Origin: an uncultured bacterium
GTDB taxonomy: Bacteria > Babelota > Babeliae > Babelales > Babelaceae
DNA: 64,000 bases
NCBI GenBank assembly: GCA_963722385.1
Contig: CAVRKK010000002.1
Coordinates: 1-64,000, forward strand
Direction of reading: 5' to 3'
Below, in pieces: positions 13,432-60,322 of this stretch. Every line of letters starts with the position of its first letter. Position 1 is the stretch's first letter. The translations under genes were made by a program, and so were the position numbers. The notes beneath the pieces are model-generated. The model did not search any database. It worked only from the letters and a program-made list of their open reading frames with translations, and was not told where the DNA came from.

Positions 13432-16086
13432 TTAATTTAACCGAACTTCAACGCGCGGTGGGATATTAAGCGCTTCGTAAATATCCTGTGCATGTACTGT
13501 TTCTTTTTCAAGCAGCAATTGAGCAAGCTTATCCAACTTATCCCGGTGCTGGACCAGCAATTCTTTCGCTTTATCATAGCATTTCTGCAATATTGAGCGA
13601 ACTTCCTCATCAATTTTGCCAGCAGTTTCCTGAGAATACTCCGGCTTACCATAAGCAGACTCCTGGTAGATGACTGGTCCAAGCGTATCGCTCATGCCAT
13701 AAACACATATCATTTGGCGAGCCATATTGGTAGCAACCTTAAAGTCGCTTGCCGCTCCTGTGGATAGCGTATTAAAAACAAGCTCTTCAGCCACACGACC
13801 TCCCAAAGCTGACATAATCGAAGCCAATATTTCTTCTCTGGTGGAGGTATACTTGTCACGGTCAGGAAGCCAGTGAGTTGAGCCAAGCGACATACCTCGA
13901 GGAATAATCGTTACCTTAAAAAGCGGGTCGGTAACGTCGGGTAATAACAACCGAACCAGCGCATGTCCAGCCTCATGAAATGCCGTCATCTGAAGCTCTT
14001 TAGGCGTAAATATTATCGAACGCACCTCTTTACCCATAATAATTTTATCGCGTGCCTCATCTATATCACCCATAAGAACCTTGTCTTGATTTTTTTTCGA
14101 AGCCGCCAGTGCTGCTTCATTAATCAAGTTAGCTAAATCGGCACCAGAAAAGCCCGGCGTCCCCCTTGCTATTTTATTAAGATTAATATCCGAAGCCAGC
14201 TTAATACGGCGTGCATGTACTTGCAAAATTTCTTCACGGCAAACGATATCAGGAAACGGAACAACTACTTTACGATCAAATCGCCCCGGCCGTAAAAGTG
14301 CGCTGTCCAACATATCAACGCGGTTGGTTGCCGCTAAGACAATGACGTCTGACTGCGCCGTATCAAACCCGTCCATCTCAGCCAAAAGCTGGTTGAGAGT
14401 TTGTGAATACTCACCCACGCTTGACCCCTTAAGACGCTGGCCACCTACAGAATCTACCTCGTCGATAAAGACAATGCTCGGAGCATGCTTACGAGCCTGG
14501 GCAAAAAGTTCACGTACTCGCGACGCACCAACACCCACGTAAATCTCAACAAAATCCGAGCCACTCACGCTAAAAAAGGGACACTGCGCTTCACCCGCAA
14601 CAGCACGAGCAAGCAAGGTCTTGCCATTGCCTGGCTCGCCAACCAATAAGACCCCACGCGGTATCTTGGCGCCAAGTTCCTTAAATTTGGCTGGTCGACG
14701 CAAAAATTCAACCACATCAAGCAACTCCTCTTTGGCATCACGCACCCCTGCAACATCCTTAAAGGTCGTCTTGACCTGGGAAGGCATAAAGAGTTTAACA
14801 TGGGCTGCACCGCGTGTTTGCAATGCTCCCGTCGCGTTATTGGTCTCCTGAGACTTAAATATTTTAAGCCGGGCCTCCTCAATGTCACTAGCCATAATAG
14901 CATCATGGCCCTTTTTAGAAGCAATCAAGGCAGCCTGGTTAATAAGATTTGCAAGCTCGGCACCACTAAAGCCAGCAGTTTCCTGGGCTAGCCCTTTGAT
15001 ATCCACCGTCGGTGCCAATTTGGTATCGCGTACGTGAATCTTAATAATAGCTTCGCGGCTTGCTAAATCAGGGAAAGGAACATTAATCCGATGATCAAAT
15101 CGGCCAGGCCTCAAAAGCGCCTTATCAAGCACGTCAGGTATGTTAGTTGCTGCTAATATCACCAAAGGCACGTTTTGGCTTTCAAAGCCATCCATTTCGG
15201 TCAAAAGCTGATTAAGCGTTTGTTCCCGTTCATCATTCCCGCCGCCTAAGCCAGTACCACGCTGACGACCAATAGCGTCGATTTCATCGATAAATATGAT
15301 GCTTGGCGCATGCTTACGCGCTTGGGCAAATAAGTCACGAATACGTGCTGCACCAACACCCACAAATACCTCAACAAAATCTGATCCGCTCACCATAAAA
15401 AATGGGCAATGCGCTTCCCCAGCAACTGCTTTTGCAAGCAAAGTTTTGCCATTACCGGGCTCACCTACAAGAAGAACGCCCCGAGGAAGCTTTGCTCCGA
15501 GGCGCTTAAACTTGTCAGGATGCTTAAGTAATTCTACAATATCAGCAAGCTCTTGCTTAGCCTCTTGAGCACCTGCTACCGAGGAAAAATTAACTTTTAC
15601 CTGCGTTGGCAAAATCATTTTAGCGCGGCTCTTGCCCATGTTAAAAATTGTGCTCCCTGAACTTCCTGAATTACGAGATTGACGAACCAAAAACCACACA
15701 AGAGCAGCAAAAAAAAGTAAACCACAAATGGCAAACCAGTACCATCCCAAAGCAACACTACTTTGCTCAGATAAGGTAACTTCAACATGATGCTTATTGA
15801 ATAAATCCCATTGCTGGGGGTTATTTTCCGGTATTACCACCTCAAACCGCGTTTTGCCATCACGCAACCATCCATATGCACGCTGCCCCGCTACGTGAAC
15901 CGATTTTACCTTGTTAAGCTCAATATTTTTGAGAAAGGTGGAATAGCTCATCGGCTGAGTAACCCGCGAGTATTCAGTCAGCATAAGTAAGATTCCAAGG
16001 CCAAGCAGCGCCGCCATGAGTAAGAAGATGAACTGACGCGGTCCCGCCCGAAATTGCTTAAAGTACATTTTTTGTTTCATGAGCAT
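13432..16086 (-). CDS. ftsH: FtsH ATP-dependent zinc metalloprotease with two tandem AAA+ domains
   Basis: Two TMs; two [21 protein letters not shown] sets; one HEAGH M41 domain; 884 aa. Confidence 0.93.
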
Positions 16087-23577: not shown

Positions 23578-23727
23578 GGCTCGCCTACGCGGCGAGCGGC
23601 AGGGCGGCGGCCCTGCACCCATTGCTCCAATTTACGTTGCTCTACACGCTTGTCTTTTACCGTTCGATGAATGCTATAACCATGCGAGGCGCATGCTTAT
23701 AGCTACTGCAATCCTCCTAACGGAGGC
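23578..23727 (+). repeat. Structured intergenic repeat, copy A (5' half only)
   Basis: Aligns with 37240..37657 (+) and 26231..26562 (-); multiple hairpins. Confidence 0.8.
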
Positions 23728-23767
23728 TAAAAACGAACATAAAGACGAATATAGGTGAATTAAGACG

Positions 23768-24663: not shown

Positions 24664-25428
24664 ATGTCTGATATTCTCCTCAAAATTATAGATATTAAAA
24701 AAACATATTACCGGAATGGCAAGCCTGAAAACGAGGCTCTTAAAGGCATTTCGTTAGAAATCAAGCGCGGAGAAATTTTTGGCTTGCTCGGGGTAAATGG
24801 AGCCGGCAAAACAACATTGTCGTCCATTATTGCTACCTTACATCCACCAACCTTCGGCGATATCGAAATTAATGGCCAATCGATTTACCGAAACCTTTAT
24901 GCCTATCGCTTACGCCTTGGCTTTTGTCCACAACGCCCAAACTTAAACCCCGCGCTGAGTCTCGAAAACAACTTACGTTTCGCGGGTCGATTTTATGGAA
25001 TGTCAGAAGCTCGTATCGAGCAACGCCTAGCCGCTCTCGTCGATCAATTTGAGCTTGGTCATTATTTATCCCAGAAGCCATACGTGCTATCAGGCGGGTA
25101 CAAGCAGAGGTTTATGATTGCGCGTAGCCTAATGCATGAGCCCAGCCTCATTTTGCTTGATGAGCCGACCGTTGGCCTTGATCCGCACATTCGACGTCAG
25201 CTCTGGCAAAAAATCAAAGAGCTCAAGGCACAGGGTATCACGATAATCTTAACGACTCATTATCTGGATGAAGCAGAGCAGCTTTCTGATCGCGTCTGTA
25301 TTCTTGATCAGGGTCAGGTAAGGCTTATTGATACGCCTGATAAACTTCTCGCTGATTTTAAGAAAAAAAATCTTGAGGACGTTTTTGTAGCATTACTGAG
25401 CGAAAGCCAAACTTCATTGATAAAGTAA
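24664..25428 (+). CDS. ABC-2 type exporter ATP-binding subunit
   Basis: GVNGAGKT, LSGG, LLDEPTVGLD, TTHY. Confidence 0.95.
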   Translation: MSDILLKIIDIKKTYYRNGKPENEALKGISLEIKRGEIFGLLGVNGAGKTTLSSIIATLHPPTFGDIEINGQSIYRNLYAYRLRLGFCPQRPNLNPALSLENNLRFAGRFYGMSEARIEQRLAALVDQFELGHYLSQKPYVLSGGYKQRFMIARSLMHEPSLILLDEPTVGLDPHIRRQLWQKIKELKAQGITIILTTHYLDEAEQLSDRVCILDQGQVRLIDTPDKLLADFKKKNLEDVFVALLSESQTSLIK

Positions 25429-25440
25429 CAAAGGATTAGT

Positions 25441-26223
25441 ATGACGACGTCATTTTATTGGCATGTTTTCAAGCAGCTTTTATATGCTGATTTGATCGTT
25501 TTTTATGAATCATTTAAAGATAAGCTCATCGACCTTTTTATCTGGGTTGCTATTACGCTGTTAGTGATGGGATATATCATGCCCGCTTTTGGCTTGACGA
25601 ATTTTGGGTCCTTCCAGCTAGCGGGCACGATAGCAAGTGCGGGGCTTTTTGAAGTGTTTCCCAGTGCTATGGCCTTAGTAAGCGATTTTTCAGGGGATCG
25701 CACTATTTCTTATCAGCTCACGCTACCTGTTCCATCATGGCTGGTATTAGCGAAGATTGTCACTTACTATGCCCTCAATGCGATTGTTTTAAGCATATGC
25801 GTTGTCCCGATGGGCAAAATTGTACTATTAAATAAGTTTGACATGGCACGAATTGACCCAATTCGATTTTTCTGCTTAGTCATATTGCTTGGCATATTCT
25901 ATGGTGTATTTACGCTCTGGATCGCCAGTCGCGCAGACACAATCGCTAAAATGAATGGCGTATGGGCACGTTTTATTTTTCCCATGTGGTTTTTAGGAGG
26001 TTTCCAGTTCTCGTGGCTCGCCATGTACGAGGTTGCGCCTTTGTTGGCTTATGTGGGCCTTTTTAATCCTATGACCTACATCATGGAAGGGGCGCGTGCT
26101 TCAGTATTAGGACAAGCCGGCTATCTGCCCTTTTGGCCTTGTATGCTTGCTTTAGTTGGCTTTAGTTTTCTTTTTGGGTCGCTGGCTTGGGGTCGCCTCA
26201 AAAAGCGCCTCGATTTTATTTAG
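25441..26223 (+). CDS. ABC-2 type exporter permease
   Basis: About 6 TMs, NPMTYIMEG motif, follows the ATPase. Confidence 0.88.
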   Translation: MTTSFYWHVFKQLLYADLIVFYESFKDKLIDLFIWVAITLLVMGYIMPAFGLTNFGSFQLAGTIASAGLFEVFPSAMALVSDFSGDRTISYQLTLPVPSWLVLAKIVTYYALNAIVLSICVVPMGKIVLLNKFDMARIDPIRFFCLVILLGIFYGVFTLWIASRADTIAKMNGVWARFIFPMWFLGGFQFSWLAMYEVAPLLAYVGLFNPMTYIMEGARASVLGQAGYLPFWPCMLALVGFSFLFGSLAWGRLKKRLDFI

Positions 26224-26230
26224 CATAGGA

Positions 26231-26562
26231 AATCGAATCGCCTGCGCGGCTGGCGCCAAAGGGACATCGTCCCTTTGCAATCCCCAAAGCGTTATGCTTA
26301 CAGGCTTAGTATGTGTAGTTATCGTCCGCAAAAGCGTACGATAACTTACGCCATTATCATGTCGCTACGCTTCATGATAAAAATTTAATATTGCTTTCTA
26401 TTTTCCGTCAGGAAAATTGCGGTAGCCATAATCATGCGCCACGCATGGTTATGGCACGAGAAGAAATAAAAGATAGAGCAATAGAGCAAGAATAACCAAG
26501 CAATGGGTGCAGGGCCACTGCCCTGCTGCCCGCCGCACAGGCGCGCCCGCTGCGCAAGCGTT
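26231..26562 (-). repeat. Structured intergenic repeat, copy B
   Basis: Reverse complement aligns with 37240..37657, including long identical blocks. Confidence 0.9.
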
Positions 26563-35488: not shown

Positions 35489-35569
35489 CAATTTAATTAT
35501 AAAAACTTGACCTGGTTTGCACCAAACCAGTATCCTTTGGATAATTACCCACGAAACAAAAGAGCAATT

Positions 35570-37192
35570 ATGATGACCTTTGCCGATTTTAATCTTTTGC
35601 CTGAAATTCAGGAAGCCTTGAACATGCTCGGTTTTACTCAACCGACGGAGATTCAAAAAATAGCAATTCCGCTCCTTTTATCTGAAAAAAATATAGATTT
35701 TCATGGGCAGGCGCAAACGGGTACCGGTAAAACGCTTGCCTTTGGAATTCCCCTTTTACAACGCCTCGATCACACTAAAAAGGTACCACAGGCATTGATT
35801 GTGGCTCCTACCAGAGAGCTTGCTGTCCAGATTTACGAAAACATTTCGCGGGTCTCCAAAAAATTACCGATCAAGCTCGCTGTGATTTATGGTGGCGTCT
35901 CCTTCGAAGAGCAAAAAAGAGCAATTGCGCAGGGAGCCCAAATTATAGTTGGCACCCCTGGCCGTCTTAACGATCATCTCCGTCGTAAAACCCTGTCCCT
36001 CGGAGCTGTTCGAACGTTAGTATTAGATGAAGCTGATATCATGCTCGATATGGGCTTCAAAGAAGAAATCGACGAGATTTTAAGCTATCTTCCTAAAAAT
36101 CGGGAAATTTGGCTTTTTTCAGCAACCGTCAAACCTGGCATTAGCGAGATAATGAAGTCACATATGAAGGACACGGTTTCTGTACGCGTTGCTCCGAAGC
36201 CCGTTGAAGCGCAAAAGACCAAGCAATATTACTGCATTGTACCGGTAAAATATCGATTACATGCGATCACCCGATTTATCCAGAGTGCTCCTGATTTTTA
36301 TGGCATTATTTTTTGTAGGACAAAAGAGCTCGTAGCTGAGCTCGCAGCCCAGCTGCTAAAGCATGATTATAGCGTCGAGGCGCTCCATGGCGATTTAAGC
36401 CAGGTTCAGCGCAACCGTGTTATTAAAAGATTTAGGCAGCGGGAGTTTTCCATCTTGGTTGCTACAGACGTTGCTGCACGAGGTATCGATATTGCGGACC
36501 TAACGCACGTTATTAACTATTCAGTCCCTGAGGATTTAGAAAGTTATGTTCACCGGATAGGAAGGACGGGGCGGGCTGGCAAAGAAGGTATTGCCATTAC
36601 CCTGATCAGCGCGAACGAGCAGCGGATTATCAGGCATTTAGAACGGAGATTTTCCCTTACGATCGAGCCTATCGATGTACCATCGCGCCAGCAACTTATT
36701 GCCACACGACTTATGCAAGCGCAAAAGTACCTCAGCGAGCTCCCTGATACTATTGAAGGCGCGTATAAGGAAGTTGAGCCCTTTATTATGTTTTTGCCCG
36801 TAGAAAAGCTTAAAGTGGCAGTAGCGAATCTACTCTATGCCAAGTTCTGCGCAACGCTCGATCTTGAGGATATTTCATACACCCATGTCGAGGTACCGAG
36901 CAACCAGTTACAAGAAATTTCTATTACGGCAGGCTCTGAGGAAGGTGTTACGAAAGAGATGATTTTGAGTTATCTAGACAAAGCCGGCATGCGTGCTGAC
37001 CAGATCAAGACGATTCGCATTATTAAGCATCGAACGTTTGTAAAGTTGGCAGCAGAATGCTCGCCGGAGCTTCTTAGTGCATTACGAGCAACGGGGCTTG
37101 ATAATAAAAAAGTACGCGTTAGCCTGACATGCGTCGTTCCTGAAGAGGTAGCGGAAAGGAAAAGAAGGTTTAGGCCACGGCGGCGGCGGTAA
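35570..37192 (+). CDS. DEAD-box RNA helicase (DeaD/CshA-like)
   Basis: QAQTGTGKT, PTRELA, DEAD, SAT, HRIGRTGR, DbpA-like C-terminal domain. Confidence 0.95.
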   Translation: MMTFADFNLLPEIQEALNMLGFTQPTEIQKIAIPLLLSEKNIDFHGQAQTGTGKTLAFGIPLLQRLDHTKKVPQALIVAPTRELAVQIYENISRVSKKLPIKLAVIYGGVSFEEQKRAIAQGAQIIVGTPGRLNDHLRRKTLSLGAVRTLVLDEADIMLDMGFKEEIDEILSYLPKNREIWLFSATVKPGISEIMKSHMKDTVSVRVAPKPVEAQKTKQYYCIVPVKYRLHAITRFIQSAPDFYGIIFCRTKELVAELAAQLLKHDYSVEALHGDLSQVQRNRVIKRFRQREFSILVATDVAARGIDIADLTHVINYSVPEDLESYVHRIGRTGRAGKEGIAITLISANEQRIIRHLERRFSLTIEPIDVPSRQQLIATRLMQAQKYLSELPDTIEGAYKEVEPFIMFLPVEKLKVAVANLLYAKFCATLDLEDISYTHVEVPSNQLQEISITAGSEEGVTKEMILSYLDKAGMRADQIKTIRIIKHRTFVKLAAECSPELLSALRATGLDNKKVRVSLTCVVPEEVAERKRRFRPRRRR

Positions 37193-37239: not shown

Positions 37240-37657
37240 AATGCTTACGCAGCGGACGCGCCTATGCGGCGAGCACACCTACGCGGTGGGCGGCATGGCG
37301 GCGGCCCTGCACCCACACCAATATGCGTAGTAGCGCATATTGTGTCCGTAGCAGCCTTTGGTAACAAAGGCGCAAAGCGAAGGGATTTTATTTCTTGCTG
37401 TATATGCTCATTTTTTGTAACTCGTGTGAATGCTCTAAGCATGCGATGCGCATGCTTAGAGCTACCGCAATCTTCCTGACGGAAGATAGAAAGCGATATT
37501 ATTTTTTTATCATGAAGCGTAGCGACATGATAATGGCGTAAGTTATCGTACGCTTTGGCGTACGATAACTACCAAACCTAACATATGCGTTATATTGCGC
37601 ATCGGGATAGCTAAGGGACGATGTCCCTTAGCCGCCAGCCGCGCAGGCGATTAGATT
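37240..37657 (+). repeat. Structured intergenic repeat, copy C (longest)
   Basis: Homologous to copies A and B; carries two extra inserted hairpins. Confidence 0.9.
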
Positions 37658-48868: not shown

Positions 48869-49627
48869 ATGAAATACGCTTTAAAAATATTTTGTATGAG
48901 CATTTTTTTTATGCATTTCCTGCAAGCGACGATCAACGGTGACACGTTAAATGCGGAAAGTATAAAGGCCCGTGTCATGTCTGAAAGAAATCTTAGGGCA
49001 GCTTCGCCCGCAATAGAAACTATGGCTCAAAAAGCCTTAGACGATTGCGGGATTACTGAGAATGTTATAATTTTAGAGAGCGATGAAAATGGGGGGAAAG
49101 TTGCCTATAGTTTCAGGCGAGATGAGCAAGCATTTTTCGTATTCGCATCTGAGTCAGAGCACAATCAAGCCATAAAGGTCTTTGCAGCTTATCATGAATC
49201 GGGTCATCTTTATCATGATCATGCTAGACAAAACACTATTCTTCCAAATATGCTATCCGCAATTTTGGCCATATCAGCAAGCTATTTGTTTTGTAAGTCC
49301 TGTGCTAATTTTAAAGAAGGAAAATCATTAGTTGGTTGGGCTTATCAAATGGGAATATTATTTCTATGTGGCATGTTAAATTTCCCTGCGCAAGTTATTC
49401 ATAAAATGCGCCAAGAAAGAGAGGCAGATTTATTTGCTTGCCAACAACTTGTGAAAAATCGTAAATCCGATATTATACTTGCTATGATAAACGACTTTGA
49501 AGCTCAAAACGTATTACCTAATTTTGTCGTTAAGGCAATTGCCTTGATTATGGGTATCCCACATTCTACCCCAATGGAGTCTTTAGAGCTTTTGAAAGGT
49601 TGCTTAAATAAAGATAATTTAGAATAA
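48869..49627 (+). CDS. M48-like zinc metallopeptidase domain protein
   Basis: Signal peptide, YHESGH (HExxH), QEREADLFA. Confidence 0.75.
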   Translation: MKYALKIFCMSIFFMHFLQATINGDTLNAESIKARVMSERNLRAASPAIETMAQKALDDCGITENVIILESDENGGKVAYSFRRDEQAFFVFASESEHNQAIKVFAAYHESGHLYHDHARQNTILPNMLSAILAISASYLFCKSCANFKEGKSLVGWAYQMGILFLCGMLNFPAQVIHKMRQEREADLFACQQLVKNRKSDIILAMINDFEAQNVLPNFVVKAIALIMGIPHSTPMESLELLKGCLNKDNLE

Positions 49628-49905
49628 TCAATAGGTATATTCGTTTTCAAACTTTGAATTCTACTAATTTTCATTTACGACTATAATCTCTCTTTTTCTG
49701 AACGCATCAAGAAGATATAGCCAGTCGCTGGCGACTCCGCCATAGCAGTAGTAGCCAGACGAGATCAGTTGGTGCGCAAACATTCTGATAATACAATCAA
49801 TATAGGGCTAAAGCTTGAGCGCTAGAAGTAGCTATAAAAGGCGCAGGAGACAATTGTTACGATTTCTTGCAAAATACCATAAGCTAGAATCTAGTAGGTA
49901 AATCT

Positions 49906-50354
49906 ATGGTGGTCAAAATGAAAACATTTTTGTTATTTTTGTGTTCGCTATCTGCAGTTATAATTCATGAACCCTGCTTTACTCAGGGCGATGGCTTGTC
50001 TACACAAAATCTAAAGAAACAACTTAGTGAAGAAGACATCAAGACTAAGCTGAGTCAAGGTTGGAAATATTATGAAGACTTTGAAAACGCTGCAGGGTGT
50101 TGGGAGTCTTTGGCAGATCTAGGTATAGCTGAAGCTCAAGCTGCTCTAGGTTATGTTTATTAGGTTATGTTGATTACGTTACTAACAAATTGGTTGAGGC
50201 AGAGCGTTATTTTAAAATGGCTGCAGCTCAGGGATTAGCTGATGCGCATTTCCATTTAGGAGATTTGTACAATGATCGACGAGACTCCAAGCAAGCACTG
50301 ATTCATTATGAGGCGGCTGCTTATAAGGGGCATCCTGAGGCCCGCCATTCTTGA
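49906..50354 (+). pseudogene. Sel1-repeat secreted protein, frameshifted and truncated
   Basis: AEAQAALGYVY, then a 14-bp tandem duplication (TAGGTTATGTTKAT) shifts the frame; continues as YFKMAAAQGLADAHFHLG...AAYKGHPEA. Confidence 0.8.
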
Positions 50355-50367
50355 CGATCCGAATAAT

Positions 50368-51632
50368 TTAGGATGAAATCAAATGGCGATTAAACATCAT
50401 AGAGCACTTTTTCAGCCTCTCGTTCGATAGTACAAGTTTCATAACTTGCCGTTTTTCTTCTACTTCAGAACTTGTAAATAATTCAGATGCTCGATTTGCT
50501 AGGCCTAGAAGGCATTTTGCGCTGAGGTAGTAGTTATCCTTGGCCTCTTGGAGTTGCTCAAGGCGAATGGTAACATCGATAGCTTGATGTTTAACTGTTT
50601 GGTAAAATCTGTCATAGTCGCTCTCGGTAATTCTCCCTTTGATCTTATCAAAGTAGAGATTGTCCATCATCTTAGTAACCATTTTCTTATCAGCAGTAAG
50701 CTTATCAAACTCTGCGTTATGAAAATTAATTTTATCTCGATGGAGAGTATCGAGGGTCTGCATGATGTTTGATAAAATGTACTCGGGTATTCGGAGATTC
50801 TTGAAAACCTTGCTTAATTGCCTTGTAATCTCTTCCTCGCGCAGCATTTTGCCCCATGCTTGCCCTTGCATTGGGTGCAATGGTAAAAATAGACATAGCC
50901 TTTATGTTTTTCGGGTGTTATGGCCAATCCACAGTGGCCACAGCGAATCAGCCCGCGGTAGACATACGGTTGGCCAGCATATTTATGTGGCTTTTTCTTA
51001 AAGCCATCTTTGACTTGTTGTACGGCTTCAAAGAGAGCTCGGTTGATAATGGGAGGATAGCGATGTGGATATTCCTTGCCCTTGATGATTATGACACTGT
51101 GATAAAAAGGGTTATCAAGTATCTTGCCAAGAGAGCCTTTCGGCCAGTTAATACCGTAATCAGCCTCGAGTTTTTTGTGTAGGAGATCCAAAGAGAAAGC
51201 CCCAGTGGCATAAAACTCAAAGGTCTTTTAACGATCTGTGGGCCATAATCATCAACGATAATATCAGTGCTCCCATTTTCGTGCTTTATGTTTTTATAGC
51301 CGTAGGGTGCTTTTGGCAACCATTCGTCCTTGCGAAGCTTTTGCTCTTGGGCTCTTTTTACGTTGTCGCTGATGGCATCTGAATAGTATTTGGCAAGCCA
51401 AGGCTGATACTGAACTGGAATTTTTCTACGGCTGAGATGCGACTGTTGATAATGTGCCCTTGCGAGTGCAGACAATCATTAGAATAAGCGCTTTCATCAA
51501 AGCTGCTAGAACTTCGAATCCTTTATTTTCGCAATAAGTTTTGAGCCGGGATGTTTGAGCTGGCAATGAAATGCCGGCTCCTTTTTGCTCTTCAGTGCTT
51601 ACGTGGGCTAGGAATATGGTTTCATTGCTCAA
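50368..51632 (-). pseudogene. Large serine recombinase, multiply frameshifted
   Basis: Fragments HVSTEEQ..SLPAQ, SDNVKR..KAPYGY, ILDNPFY..YPPII, YRGLIRCGHCG, coiled coil. Confidence 0.88.
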
Positions 51633-51784
51633 TTAACTAGCCGCCTGCCTTTGCTTGCTTTTGAGCCATTTCACCCATTAGTTCTTTTATCGGCAAGGCA
51701 GTCTTAGTGAGTGCTTCACAAGAACTATTTATAAAAATTAGTTTTGCCAAATTGGCATCTTTATTATCTGCCGATCCAGTATCC

Positions 51785-51814
51785 TTGACAAAAGTGTAAC
51801 CTTTGGGTTACAAT
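51785..51814 (+). promoter_or_regulatory. TA operon promoter with overlapping palindromic operator
   Basis: TTGACA...TACAAT with TGTAACC-TTTG-GGTTACA inverted repeat. Confidence 0.7.
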
Positions 51815-51838
51815 TAATATCATTGTGGAAGAATTGTT

Positions 51839-52183
51839 ATGAATTACGAAATACTTACTTACGAGACCGAAACTGGAAAAATTCCCTTTGATGAATGGTT
51901 AGATGACCTTGATGTTACGCAGGTTGCTCTAATCGCTCGCCGCATCGATAGATTTAGAAAAGGAAATTTTGGAGACCATGAAGCGGTAGGCCAGGGTGTT
52001 TATGAGGCAAGGATGCATGAAGGGCCAGGATATAGAGTTTATTACAGTGTCGTCGGTAAAGCTGTCGTGCTTCTACTATGTGGCGGCACAAAAAGAAGAC
52101 AGGCAAAAGATATTACCAAGGCTCATAAATATTTAGAAGATTATAAATTGGAGAAGGAGAAATATGGCAAAAAAATGGGATGA
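51839..52183 (+). CDS. Type II TA toxin, RelE/HigB-like addiction module killer
   Basis: PFDEWL, GNFGDH, GPGYRVYY, LLLCGGTKRRQAKDI. Confidence 0.9.
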   Translation: MNYEILTYETETGKIPFDEWLDDLDVTQVALIARRIDRFRKGNFGDHEAVGQGVYEARMHEGPGYRVYYSVVGKAVVLLLCGGTKRRQAKDITKAHKYLEDYKLEKEKYGKKMG

Positions 52184-52475
52184 CATCTTAATAGAAAGGC
52201 TTAAGAATAAGAGGCAAGCGCTAGCCTATCTTAATGCCGCACTGGAAGATACTAAAGACGGTAGCCCCGAGAGTCAAGAATTGTTGCTTATTGCCTTAAG
52301 AAATATCGCTAAGGCTCAGGGTGGATTCACGTCGCTATCAAAAAAAACTGGTCTAGCTAGAGAAGCTCTTTATAGATCGTTGTCTAAACAAGGGAACCCC
52401 AAAGTTACCACATTAACAAATCTTATATCAGCATTGGGATTTGAGCTCCAGGTTGCAGCTAAGAAGAAGCATTAA
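52164..52475 (+). CDS. Addiction module antidote (HTH antitoxin)
   Basis: AYLNAAL, ALRNIAKAQGG, REALYRSLS..GNP. Confidence 0.9.
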   Translation: MAKKWDDILIERLKNKRQALAYLNAALEDTKDGSPESQELLLIALRNIAKAQGGFTSLSKKTGLAREALYRSLSKQGNPKVTTLTNLISALGFELQVAAKKKH

Positions 52476-53061
52476 TCAATATCATCAGTAAGATTTATGG
52501 CTACAAGGGATAAGGAAAATTGGTAGCTCTTCGAATTGTGTCACAGCCTGTGCCATAGTTCCAAAGGCAAGCATGTCAGGAATGTCTGTTTTGTAGGAAT
52601 GTTTCTGCTATCTTGCTTCTCTATTCCTTTACTTGTTGTTTTTCGGTTATGATTTTTCCAATTGGTCAGCAAAGCTTCACGACTCTTTATTGGAACCAGA
52701 AAAACACGGTTTTTATAAATGCGTGCGGTTAATTCTAGATCTAGTTTTGGGTTAAGCGAGATGAAATCATACGAGCAACACGTTCACCTGATTCGCAAGC
52801 TGCTTCCAAAGTTCCTGATGCTTCAAACAAAATCGAAGCATGTTCTCCTGCAAAGTAAAGGTTGTTATCGACGGAGCAAAAAGCGTCTCTTTATCTATCC
52901 CGATGACTTTTACTTTGACGAACGACCTGATATATCAATTGCTTGTGCAGACGATGTGCATGATTATGGCAAATGCGGCATTCTTGAGGACGACATCCTG
53001 AATTAAGTTAGTAATAATATAGCTATTTTTTGGAAACCCATGAGAAATAGTCCAAAAATCA

Positions 53062-54178
53062 CTATTTCCTTAATTTTATTGGCTCAAACTTCATCAAGTG
53101 CTTACGCATGAAGCTAAAAGGATTATGCGATAGAGGTAGTTCTATAGCGTGCGCGTCAGCAATAAGCCTTTGCCAAGTTCTTGATGGGCACCTGGCAAAC
53201 ATGGTTCTTAGTTCACGTGATGTAACCGCTTCGAGAGCTTTTTTTAGGCCAAATGCCTGTATTATGTGCTTAGCGCTTCGTTGTGGGTTGTTGAGAATTA
53301 AAGCGGCAAGGAGGCCCTGGTCGCTCGTTGGTTTGTAGTTGAGCAAAGCCGGCCTCTTGCTCTCTATCTCGCTTAAATAATAGAGCAAAACCTTTTTCGG
53401 AATGGCCGGCTTGCAGAGCTTTTTGAGCGTGAGGTCTGAGGTGATACCTATAATTTGCAAAAGTTGTTTAATTTTCTGCCGCTTGGTAAGGTGCGCTTCC
53501 ATACGTAAAACTTCAAACATTTTTCGTTGGCGTAATGTGTCGAAAAGGTGCAGCTGTAAAGCATTATCCTTTTCCAGAGTCCGTTTATCGCTTTTCTTAG
53601 CTAACTCTAAATCTTTAATTTTGTCGTAAAAGACGACTTTATACGAATTTGCATGCCACTTATAGCTATGCCCATCCCGGTAATCTGTTTGGTTGATATC
53701 AAGCGAAAGTTGTACATTAGCCTCTTTAACTTTATTAATAAAATGATACGGTATAGAGCCATCAGTAAGAGGGATATTCTTGGAGTAGAGGATGGCAATA
53801 AGAGGCGCTTGTTCAAGAATCTGCTGTGTTACGACTACTCCCCATTGTTTCGAGTGTCTGAGTTAGTTTCTGTGTTGCAATCGTAATATCTCTATACTTA
53901 AGTTCGGTGAAATTATTGCCAAAAAGCAGTTTGGGTAATGAAAGTTCGATTTTCAGCACTATCTCTTGCTTACCCAAATGACTAAATCGATGAAAAAGCG
54001 TAAGCCGGGGCTTATAAATGCCGACTAATAGTTCTTTTTTGGTTGGGTTTTGCTTCGATTGTATACCATAAAGTGCTGGGGTTGGGTTTGCGACCCATCG
54101 AGCGGAAGGCACGAACTTATCAAGGTCGTTAATCTGATACATATCGTGACTAAGTAATAAAACAATCGTATCTACCAT
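53062..54178 (-). pseudogene. Rolling-circle replication initiator (phage/plasmid gene II/X-like), frameshifted
   Basis: MVDTI, IELSLPKLLFGNN, VVFYDK and VLRMEA motifs spread over different frames. Confidence 0.7.
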
Positions 54179-54309
54179 TACTTATTTTTTTCCGAATAGC
54201 TCAAAGTGATTTCTGGGTATAATTGCACAGCAAGACAACTTATAGTAGCATATTTGTCCAAAGCAAGAAAAAGCGCATGCGATGAAAACACGAAAAGGTG
54301 GTTAAACAC

Positions 54310-55047
54310 ATGAAGAAAATAAAGATTTTCTTAGCCCTATTTATAGGTATTTTTAATTTTAGGCTTTATGGTGCAGCGGCTGTAACACATGCATTTCTGG
54401 CTTTGGAATGGCTAAGCCTTAATAAGCCACTCTACTCAGAGAGCCAAAAGCTTTCTTTTTTGAAAGGAACCTTATTTAACGATATTCGCTATCTAGCAGG
54501 TCTTTCACGGTATAGCACGCACGAGGAGGGGTTAAAAATTACAGATATTTTTTACGAACAAAATTGCTTTGAAGCAGGTAGAAAGTTTCACGCATGGGTT
54601 GACGAAACACGGGATGCATTTGTAAATCTGCATGGTCCTATGATTGTTATGCTGCTCAAGCAAGAGTTTCAAACTGATTATTTAGCACAAACATATTTAA
54701 AATTTATAGAGGATGAGCTTCTATTCAACAAATATGATTGGAAATTCCTTTCAGAAGCATTGCTTACGGTGGATCCTGAAGAGAGCAAATGGCATGTTAC
54801 ACAAAACATACTTGAACAATGGCATCAGATCCTTATTCGGCGATTTACGAGTCAAAATTTCTTTGCAGAGCTTTGTAAAAGCGAAAAAGATTACGGCAAC
54901 CTTTCGAACGATATTCTCTGTCTATGGGCCGATCGCATTGGTTATCATGTTCAGATGGATTACATGCAAGAACATATGAGGAAAATGATAGCTTATTTTT
55001 ATCAATTGTTTGAGCCGATCAAATACTCTGTTCACGAGGAGCTTTAG
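54310..55047 (+). CDS. Secreted hypothetical protein with Zn-dependent phospholipase C/P1-like motifs
   Basis: Signal peptide, then AAAVTHA, GTLFNDIRY, TH, GRKFHAWVD. Confidence 0.65.
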   Translation: MKKIKIFLALFIGIFNFRLYGAAAVTHAFLALEWLSLNKPLYSESQKLSFLKGTLFNDIRYLAGLSRYSTHEEGLKITDIFYEQNCFEAGRKFHAWVDETRDAFVNLHGPMIVMLLKQEFQTDYLAQTYLKFIEDELLFNKYDWKFLSEALLTVDPEESKWHVTQNILEQWHQILIRRFTSQNFFAELCKSEKDYGNLSNDILCLWADRIGYHVQMDYMQEHMRKMIAYFYQLFEPIKYSVHEEL

Positions 55048-55090
55048 GATTCGACGGGCTGCGACTATTCCTAGCTTAGGGAAAAAAGAT

Positions 55091-55402
55091 CTACTTGAAA
55101 CCAAGAGCGCAGATGTTTGCTGATATAGTTTCCCGATGGTGCAATAATCCAGTGGACTTTAAGCAAAAAAGGCTTAAATATGATATACGTTGCTCATTGA
55201 AGAAATAAAAAATCTCATATAACACTGAGCTCCTATTGCTTAGTTTTGGTTTCTTTGATGGTTTTGATTCACGCGCATCTTTCTTGTTATTCTCTCTCCT
55301 TTGTACGGTGGCCAAGGTTAAAAAGAAGGATGCGATTCTATTTTTTTCGTGCGATGATAACGATCCCTCACCGGTGGCAGGAGTATCTCTTTTTTCTAAC
55401 AT
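55091..55402 (-). CDS. Small hypothetical protein of the island
   Basis: AAAGGA RBS and a 103 aa ORF; 3' end possibly degenerate. Confidence 0.4.
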   Translation of the reverse strand: MLEKRDTPATGEGSLSSHEKNRIASFFLTLATVQRRENNKKDARESKPSKKPKLSNRSSVLYEIFYFFNEQRISYLSLFCLKSTGLLHHRETISANICALGFK

Positions 55403-55900
55403 GATAGCTATCCTTTAATGCGTGGATTCTCGAGCGAAAGCTTAATTAATCCTGGTGTATCGAACGACACAAGAGCAAGCGACTACTCGAACATGTAGTA
55501 ACGTAATTAAATAATGCGTACTAGCAAGCCTCATAGCTTGGCCAAGCACAAAGAAGGAAAGGGAATTTATCTTAAGACTTGGATAAGCGCATATCTCGAG
55601 CCTGCTCGGTGCGCGGAGATTTGATAGCACGTTCATCTGCTTATCCTTGGTATGAGAGTTTGTAAATAAGGCAAAAATCAGTATATACGGGTGGATGTAG
55701 ATTGCAAGAGCTAAGCAAGCCGCTTTCTTTGCCTTTAATGCATGGATGCAATTTTTCTCCCTTTATATTGTTCTGGGTTGAAAATACTGTATCTAATTGC
55801 GCGAAAGTACTCAACTTTAGATATTATATAAATATATGTAAGATTTTGATTGACTTTGTATTTAGTTGGTATATAATGTTTATTGTCTTCATCAAAATAA

Positions 55901-55966
55901 GGTGGCCGCGAGCATGAAACATGGCCGGGTACCACCTGAACAGGCCCGCTTGCAAAGGCGGGCTTA
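55901..55966 (+). repeat. 66-bp structured direct repeat, copy 1 (candidate small or leader RNA)
   Basis: Identical to 58227..58292; preceded by TTGACT-16 bp-TATAAT. Confidence 0.9.
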
Positions 55967-56077
55967 GTTATTTGATAGGATTGAATAAAGCTGTTTTGTT
56001 AACGCATGGGCTGGTGTTATTTTAGAAGGTCAAAAGCAGATTAAGTATGGGCCAGAACTATTAATGGAGTAGCTTGG

Positions 56078-56194
56078 ATGAAATTTGCACAATTAAAGGC
56101 GCGTATAAATGATGGCGAATCTAATACTTTAGAATTTAAGAATTCAACAAGCAGTATTACCTCGGGTATGCAGACCATTTGCGCTTTTAAATAG
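56078..56194 (+). pseudogene. AlbA_2 (Schlafen-like) domain N-terminal fragment
   Basis: GGAG RBS; MKFAQLKARINDGESNTLEFK...QTICAF, then truncated. Confidence 0.65.
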
Positions 56195-56460
56195 TGAGTA
56201 TTTCCTTTATGTCTTTAGCTTTATAGCGAGCAGGAAGTTTTGGGATCTCAATAAATTTTGAACGGAGATTTAGTTTTCCTTGATCATGCTCAATTGCTTC
56301 TTGAAAACCTGCTTTTAAAGCTTGAAATAATTTACTCATGTCATGAATTTTTTTAAAATAGCTTACCAAATCTCTAAGAATTTTCTTTTCTTCTTCTGTT
56401 ATGTTTTCTTACTCATTTTTTGCAAAGATAAAAAACAGATTTATCCGTTCTTTTGCTAGA
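56187..56460 (-). pseudogene. Remnant HigB/HigA-like TA pair
   Basis: INLFFIFAKNE*ENITEEEK (toxin tail) followed by MSKLFQALKAGFQEAIEH (antitoxin head, HTH missing). Confidence 0.65.
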
Positions 56461-56693
56461 AAATAAAAAATTGGCTCGATCTTAGCTTCTCTGCTTCTGA
56501 ACGCGTCAACCAAGTACCGCTAGCGCTTGATTAAGCTTCTGGTAGGTGTTTCCATAATAAGCACGTTAAGCAAATGCTAGCTAGTATGATTTGGCAATTA
56601 AGGGCTTATTGAGAAAAGTTTGATCTTCTGATTTTCGATAAAGCATAGCGTTTCAAAGGCGCTGCTTCTTTTTCTTTAGATATTACCTATCGA

Positions 56694-56995
56694 TTATTCG
56701 CTTTTTAAAACTATCAAGTAATAGGCTCTATTAGAACCAAAGCTTAGCTTTTTTGCCCATGTTGTTGGGTATTCACGAACATCAGAGGATATTAATTTTT
56801 TAACATTAATTGTTTTGAAACCATATATCTTAAAACCTGGAAGCAAGACATTTTGAATGTATTGCTTGTCTAAGACAGGCAAAGAGAGACGATCAACCTC
56901 TTTTTTATCATGCTCTGTATTATAACCCAAAGTTATCTGAATAAGGGCATTTTTTTTACAGACTTTCTTAATATTCTGCCAAATTAATTCATTAA
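56694..56995 (-). pseudogene. C-terminal fragment of a 16S rRNA m1A1408 methyltransferase (NpmA/KamB family)
   Basis: IWQNIKKVCKK..LGY..EVDRLSLP..GF..TTWAKKLSFG.NR. Confidence 0.65.
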
Positions 56996-57208
56996 CTAAT
57001 CCAAGGCGAATGGTAACGTCAATGGCCTGATCTCTAACTGTCTGGTAAAATCTGTAGTAGTCGCTCTCAGTAATCCTTCCTTTGATCTTCTTTGACAGTA
57101 ATTCTTAGGGCGTGATATTTGAGCAGGTAGCGAATTACCTGCTTCTTTTTGTTCTTCAGCGCTTACGCGGGCTATGAGTATTGCTTTCATTATTTCACTT
57201 CTTGTCAT
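56996..57208 (-). pseudogene. Second serine recombinase remnant with large internal deletion
   Basis: ARVSAEEQKEAGNSLPAQ fused to DNA homologous to 50600..50646. Confidence 0.8.
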
Positions 57209-57421
57209 GGTATAATCAAGCCAATATTTTAAAACTATGTAGATCTTTAATCAATGGGAAAGAAGCAAAAAAGATATTAAAGAACGCTGTAATTGCCTGA
57301 GCTCTAAAAGAGTATAGTTAGCAGCTTGTCAGGACTATTGTTCTTAAAATATATCAATGCATTTGCTTATATGCGCATTTGTGCTAGACTACTTATAATC
57401 GATAATAAAAGAGGTTTACGC

Positions 57422-57697
57422 ATGAAGAACGAAGAAACGGTAAGACTTACCCTGGAGATTCCTAAAAAGTACCATAGAAAGCTGAAAAGCTTTGCTGCTA
57501 TGCATGGCAAAACTATCAAGGAAGTTGTCGTTGATTCGACGGGCTATATTATGGCCCAGGAAGAAAAAGCTCAAAAGTGCGACCGTTGCCATGAGCCAAA
57601 TGAAGAGACCATTCGGGTTCTTGAGGAAGCAAGACAAGGAAAAGGTTTGGTCAAAGCTAAAGACATTAAAGATCTGTTCAAAAAACTAAGAACTTAA
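57422..57697 (+). CDS. RHH antitoxin (DinJ/RelB-like)
   Basis: RLTLEIP..H..LK..AA..G RHH; PNEETIRVLEEA..G..L. Confidence 0.8.
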   Translation: MKNEETVRLTLEIPKKYHRKLKSFAAMHGKTIKEVVVDSTGYIMAQEEKAQKCDRCHEPNEETIRVLEEARQGKGLVKAKDIKDLFKKLRT

Positions 57698-57967
57698 GTG
57701 TTAACTATTATTTATACCAAAAAATTTAAACAGGGCTATAAAACAGCTAAAAAGCGCGGTAAAGAGCTAACTAAGCTTGAGCATATAATTGAATTACTCA
57801 TATATGAAATTCTTTTGCCAGCTAAAAATGATAACCATAAGCTAAGTGGAAATTATGAAGGTTGCTGGGAATGCCATATTGATCCTGATTGGCTTCTTAT
57901 TTATAGTAAAACAGCAACAGAAATCGTGCTGCTTAAAACGGGTTCGCATTCGGATCTCTTTAAATAA
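57698..57967 (+). CDS. yafQ: YafQ family mRNA interferase toxin
   Basis: HKLSGNY..WECHIDPDWLLIY..KTGSHSDLF. Confidence 0.92.
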   Translation: MLTIIYTKKFKQGYKTAKKRGKELTKLEHIIELLIYEILLPAKNDNHKLSGNYEGCWECHIDPDWLLIYSKTATEIVLLKTGSHSDLFK

Positions 57968-58226
57968 TAAGCTTTATTTTTGCGATTTATCCCTTTATCT
58001 CACTTCAAAAGTTGAGTCCCACCACCTGTGGGACTTTTTGATATATCAAAAAGAGCCCTTCGCTCTTACTGCTATTTACAAGCTACAGAGTCCTATTTAA
58101 CATTATTTAGCTGGGATGGCAGCTTCAAATACACCGCGAATATGGTAAGTATCATATATAATTTTTAACTGCTTAATTTTGATTTTTTGCGAGAAGGTGA
58201 AGATGTCAACACATTCAAAGTTGCCC

Positions 58227-58292
58227 GGTGGCCGCGAGCATGAAACATGGCCGGGTACCACCTGAACAGGCCCGCTTGCAAAGGCGGGCTTA
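58227..58292 (+). repeat. 66-bp structured direct repeat, copy 2
   Basis: Identical to 55901..55966. Confidence 0.9.
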
Positions 58293-58400
58293 ATTATTTG
58301 CTAACTATGAAAAAACCAAATGGCGAGTGCAATTTTTTATAATATGAAGAAAATGATAGCCTAGAGTTCAGTTTTTTCTTTTTCCTGTTCTTTCCTTTGC

Positions 58401-59048
58401 TTAAGGATTGCCCTTAGAAGCAAAATGTAATTTAGAACATTTTTCTTTATCTGTTGTGCCAAGTATAATCGCGGCATTCTCAACATATATACCATGGCTT
58501 AAGCGTGTTTGTATTGAACTCCAGTATGGACAATAGATATAGTTGCCACGGCCAATGTCATCCATGCCTTGCTGATTAAGTATATGAACGTCGCCCTCAT
58601 AGATAAATTGATCACCTGCTAACCTAAACACTGAGGTTGTTGAAAATGCGTGTTGAGGGTTGGATTTGCTTTCTTGGATCAAGTGCTTCAGTAAAAATTG
58701 AATAATATCGGTTCGTCCACTATCCAAAGCATAGTAAAGAGCATCATGCCCATATTGATCCGCCGCATATATAATTGCTCCGTGCTTGAGCAGAATCTGA
58801 GCGATTGGCAAATGTCCTTTCTTAATCGCAATTAAAAATGGTGTAGTGCTATTCCATTTTTCCACCTGGTCAGCCTTGGCACCACGGTCAAGTAAAATCT
58901 TAGCTATACCACCACGACCTTCGCTTGTTGCTATCCATAAAAGAGGCCTATCCCATATTAATTTATTAGGATCAGCGCCATGATCAAGTAGAAGCGTAAC
59001 AATATCCTTTCTTCCATAACTTATAGCTGTCTCTAGACAATTAGACAT
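58401..59048 (-). CDS. Ankyrin-repeat protein, probably 5'-truncated
   Basis: About 4 ankyrin repeats (LLLDHGADPN, TPFLIAIKKGH, LLKHGA). Confidence 0.75.
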   Translation of the reverse strand: MSNCLETAISYGRKDIVTLLLDHGADPNKLIWDRPLLWIATSEGRGGIAKILLDRGAKADQVEKWNSTTPFLIAIKKGHLPIAQILLKHGAIIYAADQYGHDALYYALDSGRTDIIQFLLKHLIQESKSNPQHAFSTTSVFRLAGDQFIYEGDVHILNQQGMDDIGRGNYIYCPYWSSIQTRLSHGIYVENAAIILGTTDKEKCSKLHFASKGNP

Positions 59049-59240
59049 GAAGTATCCAGATCCTTATTACCAACAATAAGTGAAATTGAGGCCGAGCTAG
59101 AGAGACAGGAAATTGTTGAAAAAGAGCAGAGTAAAAAGGAGAAGAAAATAAAGAATAATCGAAAGTGGCTTGCTAAAGATGCTTCGATAAAGAAATCTGT
59201 TAAAAAAGACAAGCAAAAAAAGCTTAAAATCGTTCCTACT
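59049..59240 (+). pseudogene. C-terminal fragment resembling YhcG/DUF1016 PDDEXK protein
   Basis: SLLPTISEIEAELE followed by a Lys-rich tail. Confidence 0.4.
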
Positions 59241-59259
59241 TTTATCTTGCTTCAGCTAA

Positions 59260-59800
59260 ATGTTGCCTATGGCTTTGTTGGCAACAAGGGATGTGGGTAT
59301 CAACGAAGGCGTTAAGTTCTGGCTTGGGTATCCTTATGTATATGTAATAGAGACTAGAAGATGTACTAATTCCCTGAAGCATTGGCAGCAGCGTATCCAA
59401 AAACAACCGTGCAATTGTGCATAATACATATGGTACGTAATTAGCTAAGTACATTAGTTGGAAGGACAGCAAGCCATGGTCGCCGATCTTCAAAGAATCT
59501 ATCAGTCCGTAAATCATTTTCGCAGCTAAGAAGCACTTGGGCGACTTCAAGAAAAAATGGGATACAAAGTATCCGATCGCTCCAGGTTGGGAGCGCCGAT
59601 GGTTAAACATTATTCCTTCTTCGGATTCTCTATTGAAATCACAAAAGTTGTTTATACGACCAATATGATGGAATCGCTCAATATAACTCTAAGAAAAATT
59701 CTCAAAAAACAAGTATATCCCTCAGATGATGCCGTTCTTAAACAAAAACGTTTCCCACCGATGGACCATGCCTATACACAATTGGGACCTGCAGCTTGCT
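59260..59800 (+). mobile_element. IS256-family transposase remnant
   Basis: YPKTTVQLCIIHMVRN, KWDTKYP, VYTTNMMESLN..RK in broken frames. Confidence 0.8.
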
Positions 59801-59949
59801 GTTCACCTCAAAGGAAGACTTCCTTTATAACCTATCACCGTATATACAAACTTATTGCAAGCTCCCGCTTCTCTGTTCTTGAATGCGTCCTTTACTTTGC
59901 TTAACCCGCACAGCTTGCTCAAAAAGCTTTCTGGTTAAATAGGCTTAAT

Positions 59950-60263
59950 ATCCGTCATCAAACTCTTCTGGTAAACTTAGGAATCCTTCATCTTTTTTTG
60001 CATCCTGGAGACGTAAAATATCACTCCTATAAACTTCTCGAATTCACCTTCAAAAACCTCTTGGCATACCTTATTAATCATCTCGCGCATATAATCTTCT
60101 TGATTGATCAGTGCTTCTTGCCATCTTTTAGCTATATTGATACCATTCATAGTGGGCTATCCTTCTTTGTGTTTCGTTCCATTTTTATCTTAACACGAAG
60201 GTTGATGGCCCGCTTACGCTTCCTTAAGCTTTTACCTTTTTACACAATTATACGGACTCTATC
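59950..60263 (-). mobile_element. Second IS256-family remnant: left end and transposase N-terminus
   Basis: Minus-strand GATAGAGTCCGTATAATTGTGTAAAA resembles the IS256 terminal repeat as recalled; DYMREMINKVCQEVFEGEFEKFIG. Confidence 0.6.
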
Positions 60264-60322
60264 GAAAAAAGTTTCCAAGTGGTTTTACCCATTGGGATAA
60301 AAATACTAAAAATGCTGCTGAA

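What the first reader, a model, noticed from the sequence alone, without database searches (positions are those of the whole stretch)
26231..26562. Large multi-hairpin non-coding element in three copies, with compensatory base changes
Seen: copies at 23578..23727 (+, partial), 26231..26562 (-) and 37240..37657 (+), with no credible ORF. Stems covary between copies: GCTATAA/TTATAGC vs GCCATAA/TTATGGC vs GCTCTAA/TTAGAGC; CCTCC/GGAGG vs TTTCC/GGAAA vs CTTCC/GGAAG; CAAAGGGAC/GTCCCTTTG vs CTAAGGGAC/GTCCCTTAG. Conserved hairpins include TTATCATG-AAGCGTAGCGA-CATGATAA and AGTTATCGTACGC..GCGKACGATAACT. Linkers diverge freely and copy C has extra hairpins. The ends are imperfect inverted repeats (CGCCTRYGCGGC ... 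GCCGCGCAGGCG). Two copies sit just downstream of tRNA-Arg genes. Inference: a fold under selection, either an undescribed large ncRNA family or a non-autonomous ssDNA-folding mobile element. The TAGCGA loop resembles the CS-6 motif of rolling-circle single-strand origins.
Basis: partly seen in the sequence, partly recalled or inferred. Interest (0 to 1): 0.78.

Follow-up and report, generated by a model that had tools for sequence, protein, structure and literature searches.

The report
Dispersed hairpin repeat with cross-phylum ends
The three hairpin-rich stretches are copies of a gene-less DNA repeat present about fifty times in this small bacterial genome; it behaves like a familiar miniature mobile element rather than an RNA gene, but its ends recur almost unchanged in unrelated bacteria and the enzyme that moves it is unknown.

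Summary
Real, and much larger than three copies: 47 loci in this 1.6-Mb genome carry the element's left end. Each copy is a mosaic of hairpins between two inverted ~43-nt terminal units. Stems covary (18 of 66 pairs; 0 of 500 shuffles), but almost only by Watson-Crick swaps (4 G-T in 1,184 cells). Both strands fold equally and orientation ignores neighbouring genes, which points to DNA rather than RNA. There is no Rfam match. The tRNA link holds for only 2 of 47 copies. The three orthologous sites in a congener are empty. That congener has its own family with the same layout but wholly replaced inner stems, sitting in both orientations between IS5-type ends. The terminal unit is also amplified in uncultured 'delta proteobacteria' and a clostridium. 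No Y1 transposase, reverse transcriptase, GIY-YIG or IS5 gene is shared by the hosts, so it is not a REPIN in the strict sense. Best reading: a non-autonomous, REPIN/BOX-like mobile repeat with an unidentified mover. The scan saw this family earlier in this genome; the cross-phylum end is new here.

The parts
23582..23733 (+). Copy A, 5' half only: one terminal unit, AT-rich linker, H2 (23673-23703), H3 (23713-23726); ends before tRNA-Arg(CCT), which is on the other strand
   Evidence: (best model hit in the genome)
23582..23624 (+). Left terminal unit of A: 17-mer mini-hairpin (4-bp stem, 5-nt loop) followed by a 7-bp hairpin and ACCC foot
26239..26560 (-). Copy B, complete type I element, starting about 30 bp after tRNA-Arg(TCG)
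26505..26560 (-). Left end of B: two tandem 17-mers (26560-26544, 26543-26527) and the terminal hairpin (26526-26509)
26400..26455 (-). H2 (26425-26455, 14-bp stem with a retained mismatch) and H3 (26400-26417) of B
26317..26380 (-). H4 (26354-26380, variable loop) and H5 (26317-26346) of B; type I only
26239..26277 (-). Right end of B: hairpin 26257-26277 and terminal 12-mer 26239-26250, the inverted counterpart of the left unit; followed outside by ATTCG-type pentamers
37242..37649 (+). Copy C, complete type I element with three tandem 17-mers and a nested module; lies between a DEAD-box helicase gene and trkA
37242..37314 (+). Left end of C: three 17-mers with covarying stems, then the terminal hairpin (37293-37310)
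37315..37385 (+).
37432..37570 (+). H2 (37432-37462), H3 (37470-37487), H4 (37507-37533), H5 (37541-37570) of C
37610..37649 (+). Right end of C: hairpin 37610-37632 and terminal 12-mer 37638-37649

Best explanation
A non-autonomous mobile DNA repeat of the REPIN/BOX/MITE kind. Shown: each full copy is bounded by two inverted terminal units and filled with exchangeable hairpin modules; copies are lineage-specific, intergenic and randomly oriented. Inferred: when replication exposes single strands, each end folds on the strand that runs out of the element. A trans-acting nuclease, not yet identified and probably no longer present in most hosts, recognises the conserved unit, and the element is copied to new AT-rich intergenic sites. 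Only the ends need a fixed sequence. Inner hairpins are kept paired by selection for a compact fold and/or by template switching, and are shuffled between copies by recombination and by insertion of other small palindromes.
For: 47 loci: 25 type I, 12 type II, 2 type III, 8 5'-only. The three orthologous sites in congener G001 lack it. The upstream gene is on the element's strand in 28 of 52 cases; 17 of 52 copies sit in convergent gaps against 118 of 703 gaps genome-wide (odds ratio 2.6, p 0.003), as reported for BOX/RUP/IS (passages of PMC3049150). 4 G-T and 15 A-C cells among 1,184, and equal energies on both strands. Loop of the terminal mini-hairpin is G-C-N-N-A on the outward strand in all 94 perfect matches, a shape built into the search pattern; the middle bases vary. 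G001 family: same layout, different inner stems. Terminal unit amplified patchily: 3 of 261 genomes of the phylum, 1 of 301 in the class of G045, 1 of 121 in the class of G041. A model trained only on this phylum scores the other phyla's units at E 1e-11 to 1e-13. Neighbouring copies are more alike than distant ones (score 113 against 74, p 0.007).
Against: No mover found. Y1 transposase is missing in G001, G041, G042 and G045; reverse transcriptase in 6 of 10 hosts; DUF4096 IS5 in 3 of 5; G001 and G057 show only one long GIY-YIG ORF. No unit lies in 12 loci tested, which include G000's Y1, RT, GIY-YIG and IS5 loci. No gene-containing autonomous copy appeared in the loci inspected. No exact empty site, so movement and target duplication are not shown directly; AT precedes only 34 of 69 outer ends. 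Many copies are old or truncated, so present activity is unknown.
Confidence: 0.55

Rival explanations
1. Passive passenger: a palindromic sequence without its own mover, spread by hitch-hiking between insertion-sequence ends and by recombination or gene conversion between copies. Its stems are perfected by template switching rather than by selection.
For: In G001 the core lies between two ~45-bp outer flanks in both orientations, 6 and 6 of 12 copies read by eye. One flank matches the left end of a frameshifted IS5-family element present once in G000. Double changes without wobble intermediates are what template switching makes (abstract). Neighbours share private variants.
Against: G000 copies have no such outer flanks. 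The same 43-nt unit bounds repeats in three phyla with unrelated interiors, which needs recognition of that sequence. Fixed mismatches persist in H2 (15 of 17 cells) and H5 (9 of 18).
Confidence: 0.2
2. The unit is a signal for a host replication protein (a single-strand priming or fork-stalling site). Elements with one at each end can be copied without an element-encoded enzyme.
For: A single copy lies about 350 bp downstream of a ~300-aa gene in many P2-like prophage contigs (model E 2e-7). That gene has an IncFII RepA lead (10% of one Atlas cluster). In E. coli K-12 the pattern GCAGGG-N3-24-CCCTGCACCC matches exactly the two RRS/TRIP1 repeats, control 0, which cause lagging-strand gaps (PMC11194060). 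31 of 47 copies share orientation with the leading strand (p 0.04). No dedicated enzyme is shared by the hosts.
Against: The covariance model does not detect RRS/TRIP1; the pattern was chosen after seeing RRS. The unit has no four G-runs, so the RRS G-quadruplex is absent (sequence). The prophage protein has no Pfam match. Only 2 of 62 proteins beside the general hairpin in viral contigs are Rep proteins. CS-6 is not conserved. The strand bias is weak and rests on origin and terminus placed by eye.
Confidence: 0.15
3. An undescribed multi-copy structured non-coding RNA.
For: Strong folding and covariation; one fixed 5'-to-3' order of modules; layout kept between two species; B and C follow a same-strand gene.
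Against: Almost no G-U pairs; both strands fold alike. Orientation is independent of neighbours. Ends are inverted repeats. Sites are not conserved in the congener, where the core is found flipped within constant flanks. Promoter- and terminator-like matches are at shuffle level. No Rfam match.
Confidence: 0.1

Closest known systems
REPINs / BIMEs (REP doublets moved by RAYT = TnpA-REP); abstract starts, passages of PMC6006769 and PMC3733652
   Same: Two short palindromic units in inverted orientation around a spacer; a conserved tag at the foot of the hairpin; tandem and mosaic arrays; intergenic, enriched in convergent gaps; lineage-specific bursts.
   Different: The foot reads GG(G)T, not GTAG/GTGG or CGTC. 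The unit is a double hairpin. The spacer is 200-500 bp of further hairpins. No Y1 transposase is flanked by the unit, and four hosts show none.
BOX elements of Streptococcus pneumoniae / S. suis (passages of PMC3049150)
   Same: Modular repeat with fixed end modules and a variable interior; predicted stem-loops; over-represented between convergent genes.
   Different: Sequence similarity was not tested. The interior is a set of different hairpins, and the tandem repeats are at the ends. The end unit is shared across phyla.
E. coli TRIP1 / RRS (PMC11194060 parts 1 and 4 of 6 read; PMC10888264 part 2 of 5; PMC13308219 part 1 of 6)
   Same: GC-rich multi-hairpin intergenic repeat of similar size. 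It begins with a hairpin having the same foot (GCAGGG...CCCTGCACCC). It causes rearrangements between copies.
   Different: Not detected by the model of the unit; lacks the 17-mer mini-hairpin and the inverted second end; carries a G-quadruplex that this element lacks; 2-5 copies at fixed positions.
IS-derived MITEs (RUP, Nezha; as defined in PMC3049150)
   Same: Non-coding, terminal inverted repeats, strong base-pairing. The congener's copies are wrapped in IS5-type CTAG ends.
   Different: In G000 the ends match no IS of the host; no target duplication is established; the ends are GC-rich hairpins.

Membership tests
REPIN/REP (RAYT-associated) | Two palindromic units in inverted orientation around a spacer | tested here: met
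   35 of 47 loci have a right end detected; right units score on the left-unit model in type II copies
REPIN/REP (RAYT-associated) | GTAG/GTGG tetranucleotide 5' of the hairpin foot (PMC6006769) | tested here: not met
   Foot is GG(G)T in the alignment of 51 units
REPIN/REP (RAYT-associated) | Y1 (PF01797) gene flanked by the repeat | tested here: not met
   G000's Y1 genes have unrelated ends; none found in G001, G041, G042, G045; those of G043/G044 are not flanked
MITE (IS-derived) | Terminal inverted repeats, no coding capacity, strong pairing | tested here: met
MITE (IS-derived) | Target-site duplication | tested here: inconclusive
   AT precedes 34 of 69 outer ends; no exact empty site in reads or paralogues; the congener is too distant
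MITE (IS-derived) | Ends match an IS of the host | tested here: not met
   Not in G000. Met only for one outer flank of the congener's family, which matches an IS5-type left end
BOX elements | boxA-boxB(n)-boxC sequence modules | not tested
   No BOX sequences were compared; the likeness is architectural only
TRIP1/RRS | Sequence/structure homology | tested here: not met
   No model hit on the E. coli or Klebsiella copies; only the hairpin-foot pattern is shared
TRIP1/RRS | G-quadruplex motif and lagging-strand gap formation | not testable with these tools
   The unit lacks four G-runs (sequence); gap formation needs an experiment
Rolling-circle single-strand origin (sso) | CS-6 (TAGCGT in passage of PMC4598088; the T/A variant is recalled) in a conserved loop, on a replicon with rep and dso | tested here: not met
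   TAGCG(A/T) in 5 of 24 loops; hairpin absent from type II and G001; copies are chromosomal, and no rep gene was seen beside the window copies
Rfam structured RNA families (release 15) | Match at gathering score | tested here: not met
   Only tRNAs in the window; nothing over the element at E up to 5

The most novel reading that the evidence does not exclude
The 43-nt terminal unit defines an undescribed, cross-phylum class of single-stranded-DNA signal read by a conserved host replication factor or by an unknown nuclease. It lets gene-less elements multiply without a known transposase, serves singly beside the replication gene of P2-like prophages, and is the mobile kin of the hairpin in E. 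coli's replication risk sequences, which would then be domesticated copies.
Probability: 0.15. Interest if true: 0.8.

Novelty: new variant of a known kind. Interest (0 to 1): 0.48.

Why it matters
As a repeat family in a little-studied small-genome bacterium it is a modest addition, and it warns that strong covariation alone does not make an RNA gene. The notable part is the end unit. The same 43 nt bound burst-amplified repeats in three phyla whose hosts share none of the four candidate enzyme families tested. That gives a defined substrate for finding a new mobilising enzyme, and a testable though unconfirmed lead on the origin of E. coli RRS/TRIP1.

Tried and rejected
Hammerhead ribozyme in type II (CTGATGAG): rejected by eye; the GAAA partner is not in place and two variants lose the motif. 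tRNA-targeted integration: 2 of 47. CS-6/sso. RAYT, RT, GIY-YIG and IS5 as shared partner. A small GIY-YIG gene has the unit upstream in 3 of 4 'delta proteobacterium' genomes, but at one orthologous site and on one side only. Six stretches bracketed by inverted units in G044/G045, among 8 fetched, held ORFs that looked like ordinary host genes by eye; they were not scanned. Gene capture: copies B and C sit at synteny junctions relative to G001, but the genomes are widely shuffled, junctions also occur without copies, and the block between the pair at C1 217-224 kb is collinear with G001; not claimed. Full-length BLAST: 0 of 39 other relatives beyond weak end hits in G001; plasmid and phage collections gave chance-level hits only (one short hit); two element-specific patterns gave 0 viral hits, a third gave 3 hits that lay in long ORFs and looked like chance. 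Sequencing runs: no RNA holder listed, which says nothing on expression; four DNA runs showed no joint across a copy. Model test of RRS/TRIP1 negative. Flank counts count most copies twice and were not used. Paper searches that found no description of this family or unit: (open-licence library only; supplements not searched).

Full report
Observation. The three stretches exist as described, with refined limits A 23582-23733 (+), B 26239-26560 (-) and C 37242-37649 (+). They fold far better than shuffles (z -7.0 to -8.6) and contain no ORF of 90 aa or more. Rfam gives only tRNAs. The window is the start of contig C2 of a 1.6-Mb genome. The name Dependentiae (TM6) comes from earlier notes and was not tested here.

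Family. BLAST of the three copies gave 50 clusters. 47 loci carry a left terminal unit: 25 type I (22 with a right end detected), 12 type II (all with a right end), 2 type III and 8 with the 5' half only. A few right-end fragments add to these. Every copy starts with one to three tandem 17-mers, each a 4-bp mini-hairpin, then a 7-bp hairpin with an ACCC foot. An AT-rich, freely varying linker, hairpin H2 and hairpin H3 follow. Type I continues with H4 and H5, type II with a different set. Both end in an inverted counterpart of the left unit. A two-hairpin module is nested at three different positions in different copies; it explains the extra hairpins of copy C. Pentamer runs such as ATTCA often follow the right end.

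Covariation. In 18 of the 25 type I copies aligned, 18 of 66 pairs change on both sides (57 cells against 14.9 shuffled; 0 of 500). In 51 distinct terminal units from three genomes, 7 of 11 pairs do so, with 63 two-sided and no one-sided standard changes. The shuffles ignore relatedness. The changes are almost all Watson-Crick to Watson-Crick: 4 G-T and 15 A-C cells among 1,184, 13 of the latter in H2. Both strands give nearly the same energy with RNA or DNA parameters. Structured RNAs usually show many G-U pairs (general knowledge). This pattern suits a DNA-level fold, but template switching also makes such double changes (abstract and opening of 10.1101/2021.04.15.439925), so covariation alone does not prove selection. 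Retained mismatches in H2 and H5 and the layout kept between species argue for some constraint.

Placement. With crude ORF calls, the upstream gene is on the element's strand in 28 of 52 cases. 17 of 52 copies lie in convergent gaps against 118 of 703 gaps genome-wide (p 0.003). Only 2 of 47 are near a tRNA. Copies cluster mildly (16 of 46 gaps under 8 kb, 9.6 expected, p 0.01; p 0.07 at 5 kb, 0.03 at 12 kb). 9 of 47 have their best match within 12 kb, and 31 of 47 follow the leading strand (p 0.04, origin placed by eye). In the congener G001 the three orthologous sites lack the element. trkH and trkA are 25 bp apart there, whereas here a DEAD-box helicase gene and copy C lie between them; the ABC pair beside copy B is elsewhere in G001. 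The genomes are widely shuffled and another element-flanked block is collinear, so gene capture is not claimed. No exact empty site was found.

Relatives. The full sequence finds only weak end hits in 1 of 40 relatives, but the ends find more. The terminal 12-mer is amplified in 3 of 261 genomes of the phylum (62, 31, 19 matches). The hairpin pattern has 16 or more matches in 5 of 261; in G147 and G148 it stood without the 17-mer in the loci viewed. G001 has a 213-267-bp family with the same order of parts but unrelated H2/H3 sequence. In 12 copies read by eye this core lies 6 times each way round between two constant outer flanks, many ending in CTAG. One flank matches the left end of a frameshifted IS5-family element found once in G000. 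G001 itself showed no DUF4096 gene.

Other phyla. A collection scan gave 9 loci. Five are true units, in four uncultured 'delta proteobacterium' genomes (probably Binatota; my recall) and one Clostridiaceae genome; four looked like chance matches. Those five genomes hold 81-264 pattern matches each, reversed control 0. A covariance model built only from this phylum scores them at E about 1e-11 to 1e-13. There the unit bounds short doublets, tandem arrays and mosaics with other palindromes. Amplification is rare in both classes: 1 of 301 and 1 of 121 genomes searched, each being the centre genome. All 27 metagenome loci were GC-rich and none matched G000's flanks. In viral contigs, most of the 39 loci I could see are P2-like prophages (label from recalled gene types) with one unit about 350 bp past a ~300-aa gene. 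That protein has no Pfam match and an IncFII RepA lead in the Atlas. A looser hairpin pattern gave 86 viral stretches, 80 listed; 62 flanking proteins from distinct, intergenic cases showed no enriched mobile enzyme.

Partner search. G000 has IS200-like Y1 genes with unrelated ends, a broken small GIY-YIG gene, a partial RT and IS5-type genes; no unit lies in the loci tested. Y1 was not found in G001, G041, G042 or G045, RT in 6 of 10 hosts, small GIY-YIG in G001 or G057. These genomes are incomplete to varying degrees, and other enzyme families were not tested.

E. coli RRS/TRIP1. A paper search for the motif surfaced the RRS work. Read: PMC11194060 parts 1 and 4 of 6, passages of its preprint, PMC10888264 part 2, PMC13308219 part 1. 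RRS begins with a hairpin having the same foot, and a pattern for it matches only the two RRS in K-12. Against this, the pattern was chosen afterwards, the model misses RRS and a Klebsiella copy, and the G-quadruplex is absent here. It is a lead, not membership.

Mechanism and verdict. Most likely (0.55) this is a non-autonomous mobile repeat whose folded ends are recognised in trans and whose interior is free to change. Mobility is inferred from empty orthologous sites and patchy bursts; the enzyme and the junction are not shown. Rivals: passive hitch-hiking with template switching (0.2), a host replication signal (0.15), an ncRNA (0.1). It works like a REPIN or BOX element but fails the REPIN tag and transposase tests, so I file it as a new variant of a known kind. 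I found no description in the open-licence library. Earlier notes of this scan already describe the family in this genome. Their claim that it is confined to one lineage holds for the interior but not for the ends. Interest 0.48.

Noticed in passing
L379, L394, L400 (G147); L380 (G042); L388 (G044); L383, L402 (G041): Small GIY-YIG genes are bracketed by inverted TGTCAT/ATGACA-ended palindromes, like a REPtron but with a GIY-YIG nuclease; they resemble the CGTC-tagged repeats of PMC3733652.
   Followed up: partly
G000 C1:296557-296762 (L022); L384, L387, L393: A second small GIY-YIG clade, broken in G000, follows hairpins that resemble the modules nested in this element; a possible source of those modules.
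   Followed up: partly
window 35507-37192: DEAD-box helicase gene inserted between trkH and trkA, which are adjacent in the congener.
   Followed up: partly
window 24664-26223: ABC ATPase and permease pair lies between two tRNA-Arg genes here but in a different neighbourhood in the congener.
   Followed up: partly
window 13432-16086: 884-aa FtsH-family protein with two ATPase-like stretches.
   Followed up: no
G000 C1:291690-292889 and C2:1160449-1161542: Two copies of a 399-aa ORF with an RRXRR-like motif, by eye IscB-like (label recalled).
   Followed up: no
G000 C2:1252022-1252840 (L425): Single frameshifted IS5-family element with a CTAG-preceded left end that matches the outer flank of the congener's repeats.
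   Followed up: yes
L115-L153: P2-like prophages carry a conserved hairpin cluster between an ogr-like gene and a ~300-aa gene with an IncFII RepA lead and no Pfam match.
   Followed up: partly
G057 C3:75546-75682 (L249): Tandem array of six 25-bp units built from the 17-mer, in front of a terminal hairpin.
   Followed up: no
window 48869-60715: Run of small ORFs after the tRNA-Val/Asn/Asp cluster, possibly an island; one ankyrin-type protein at 58401-59048.
   Followed up: no
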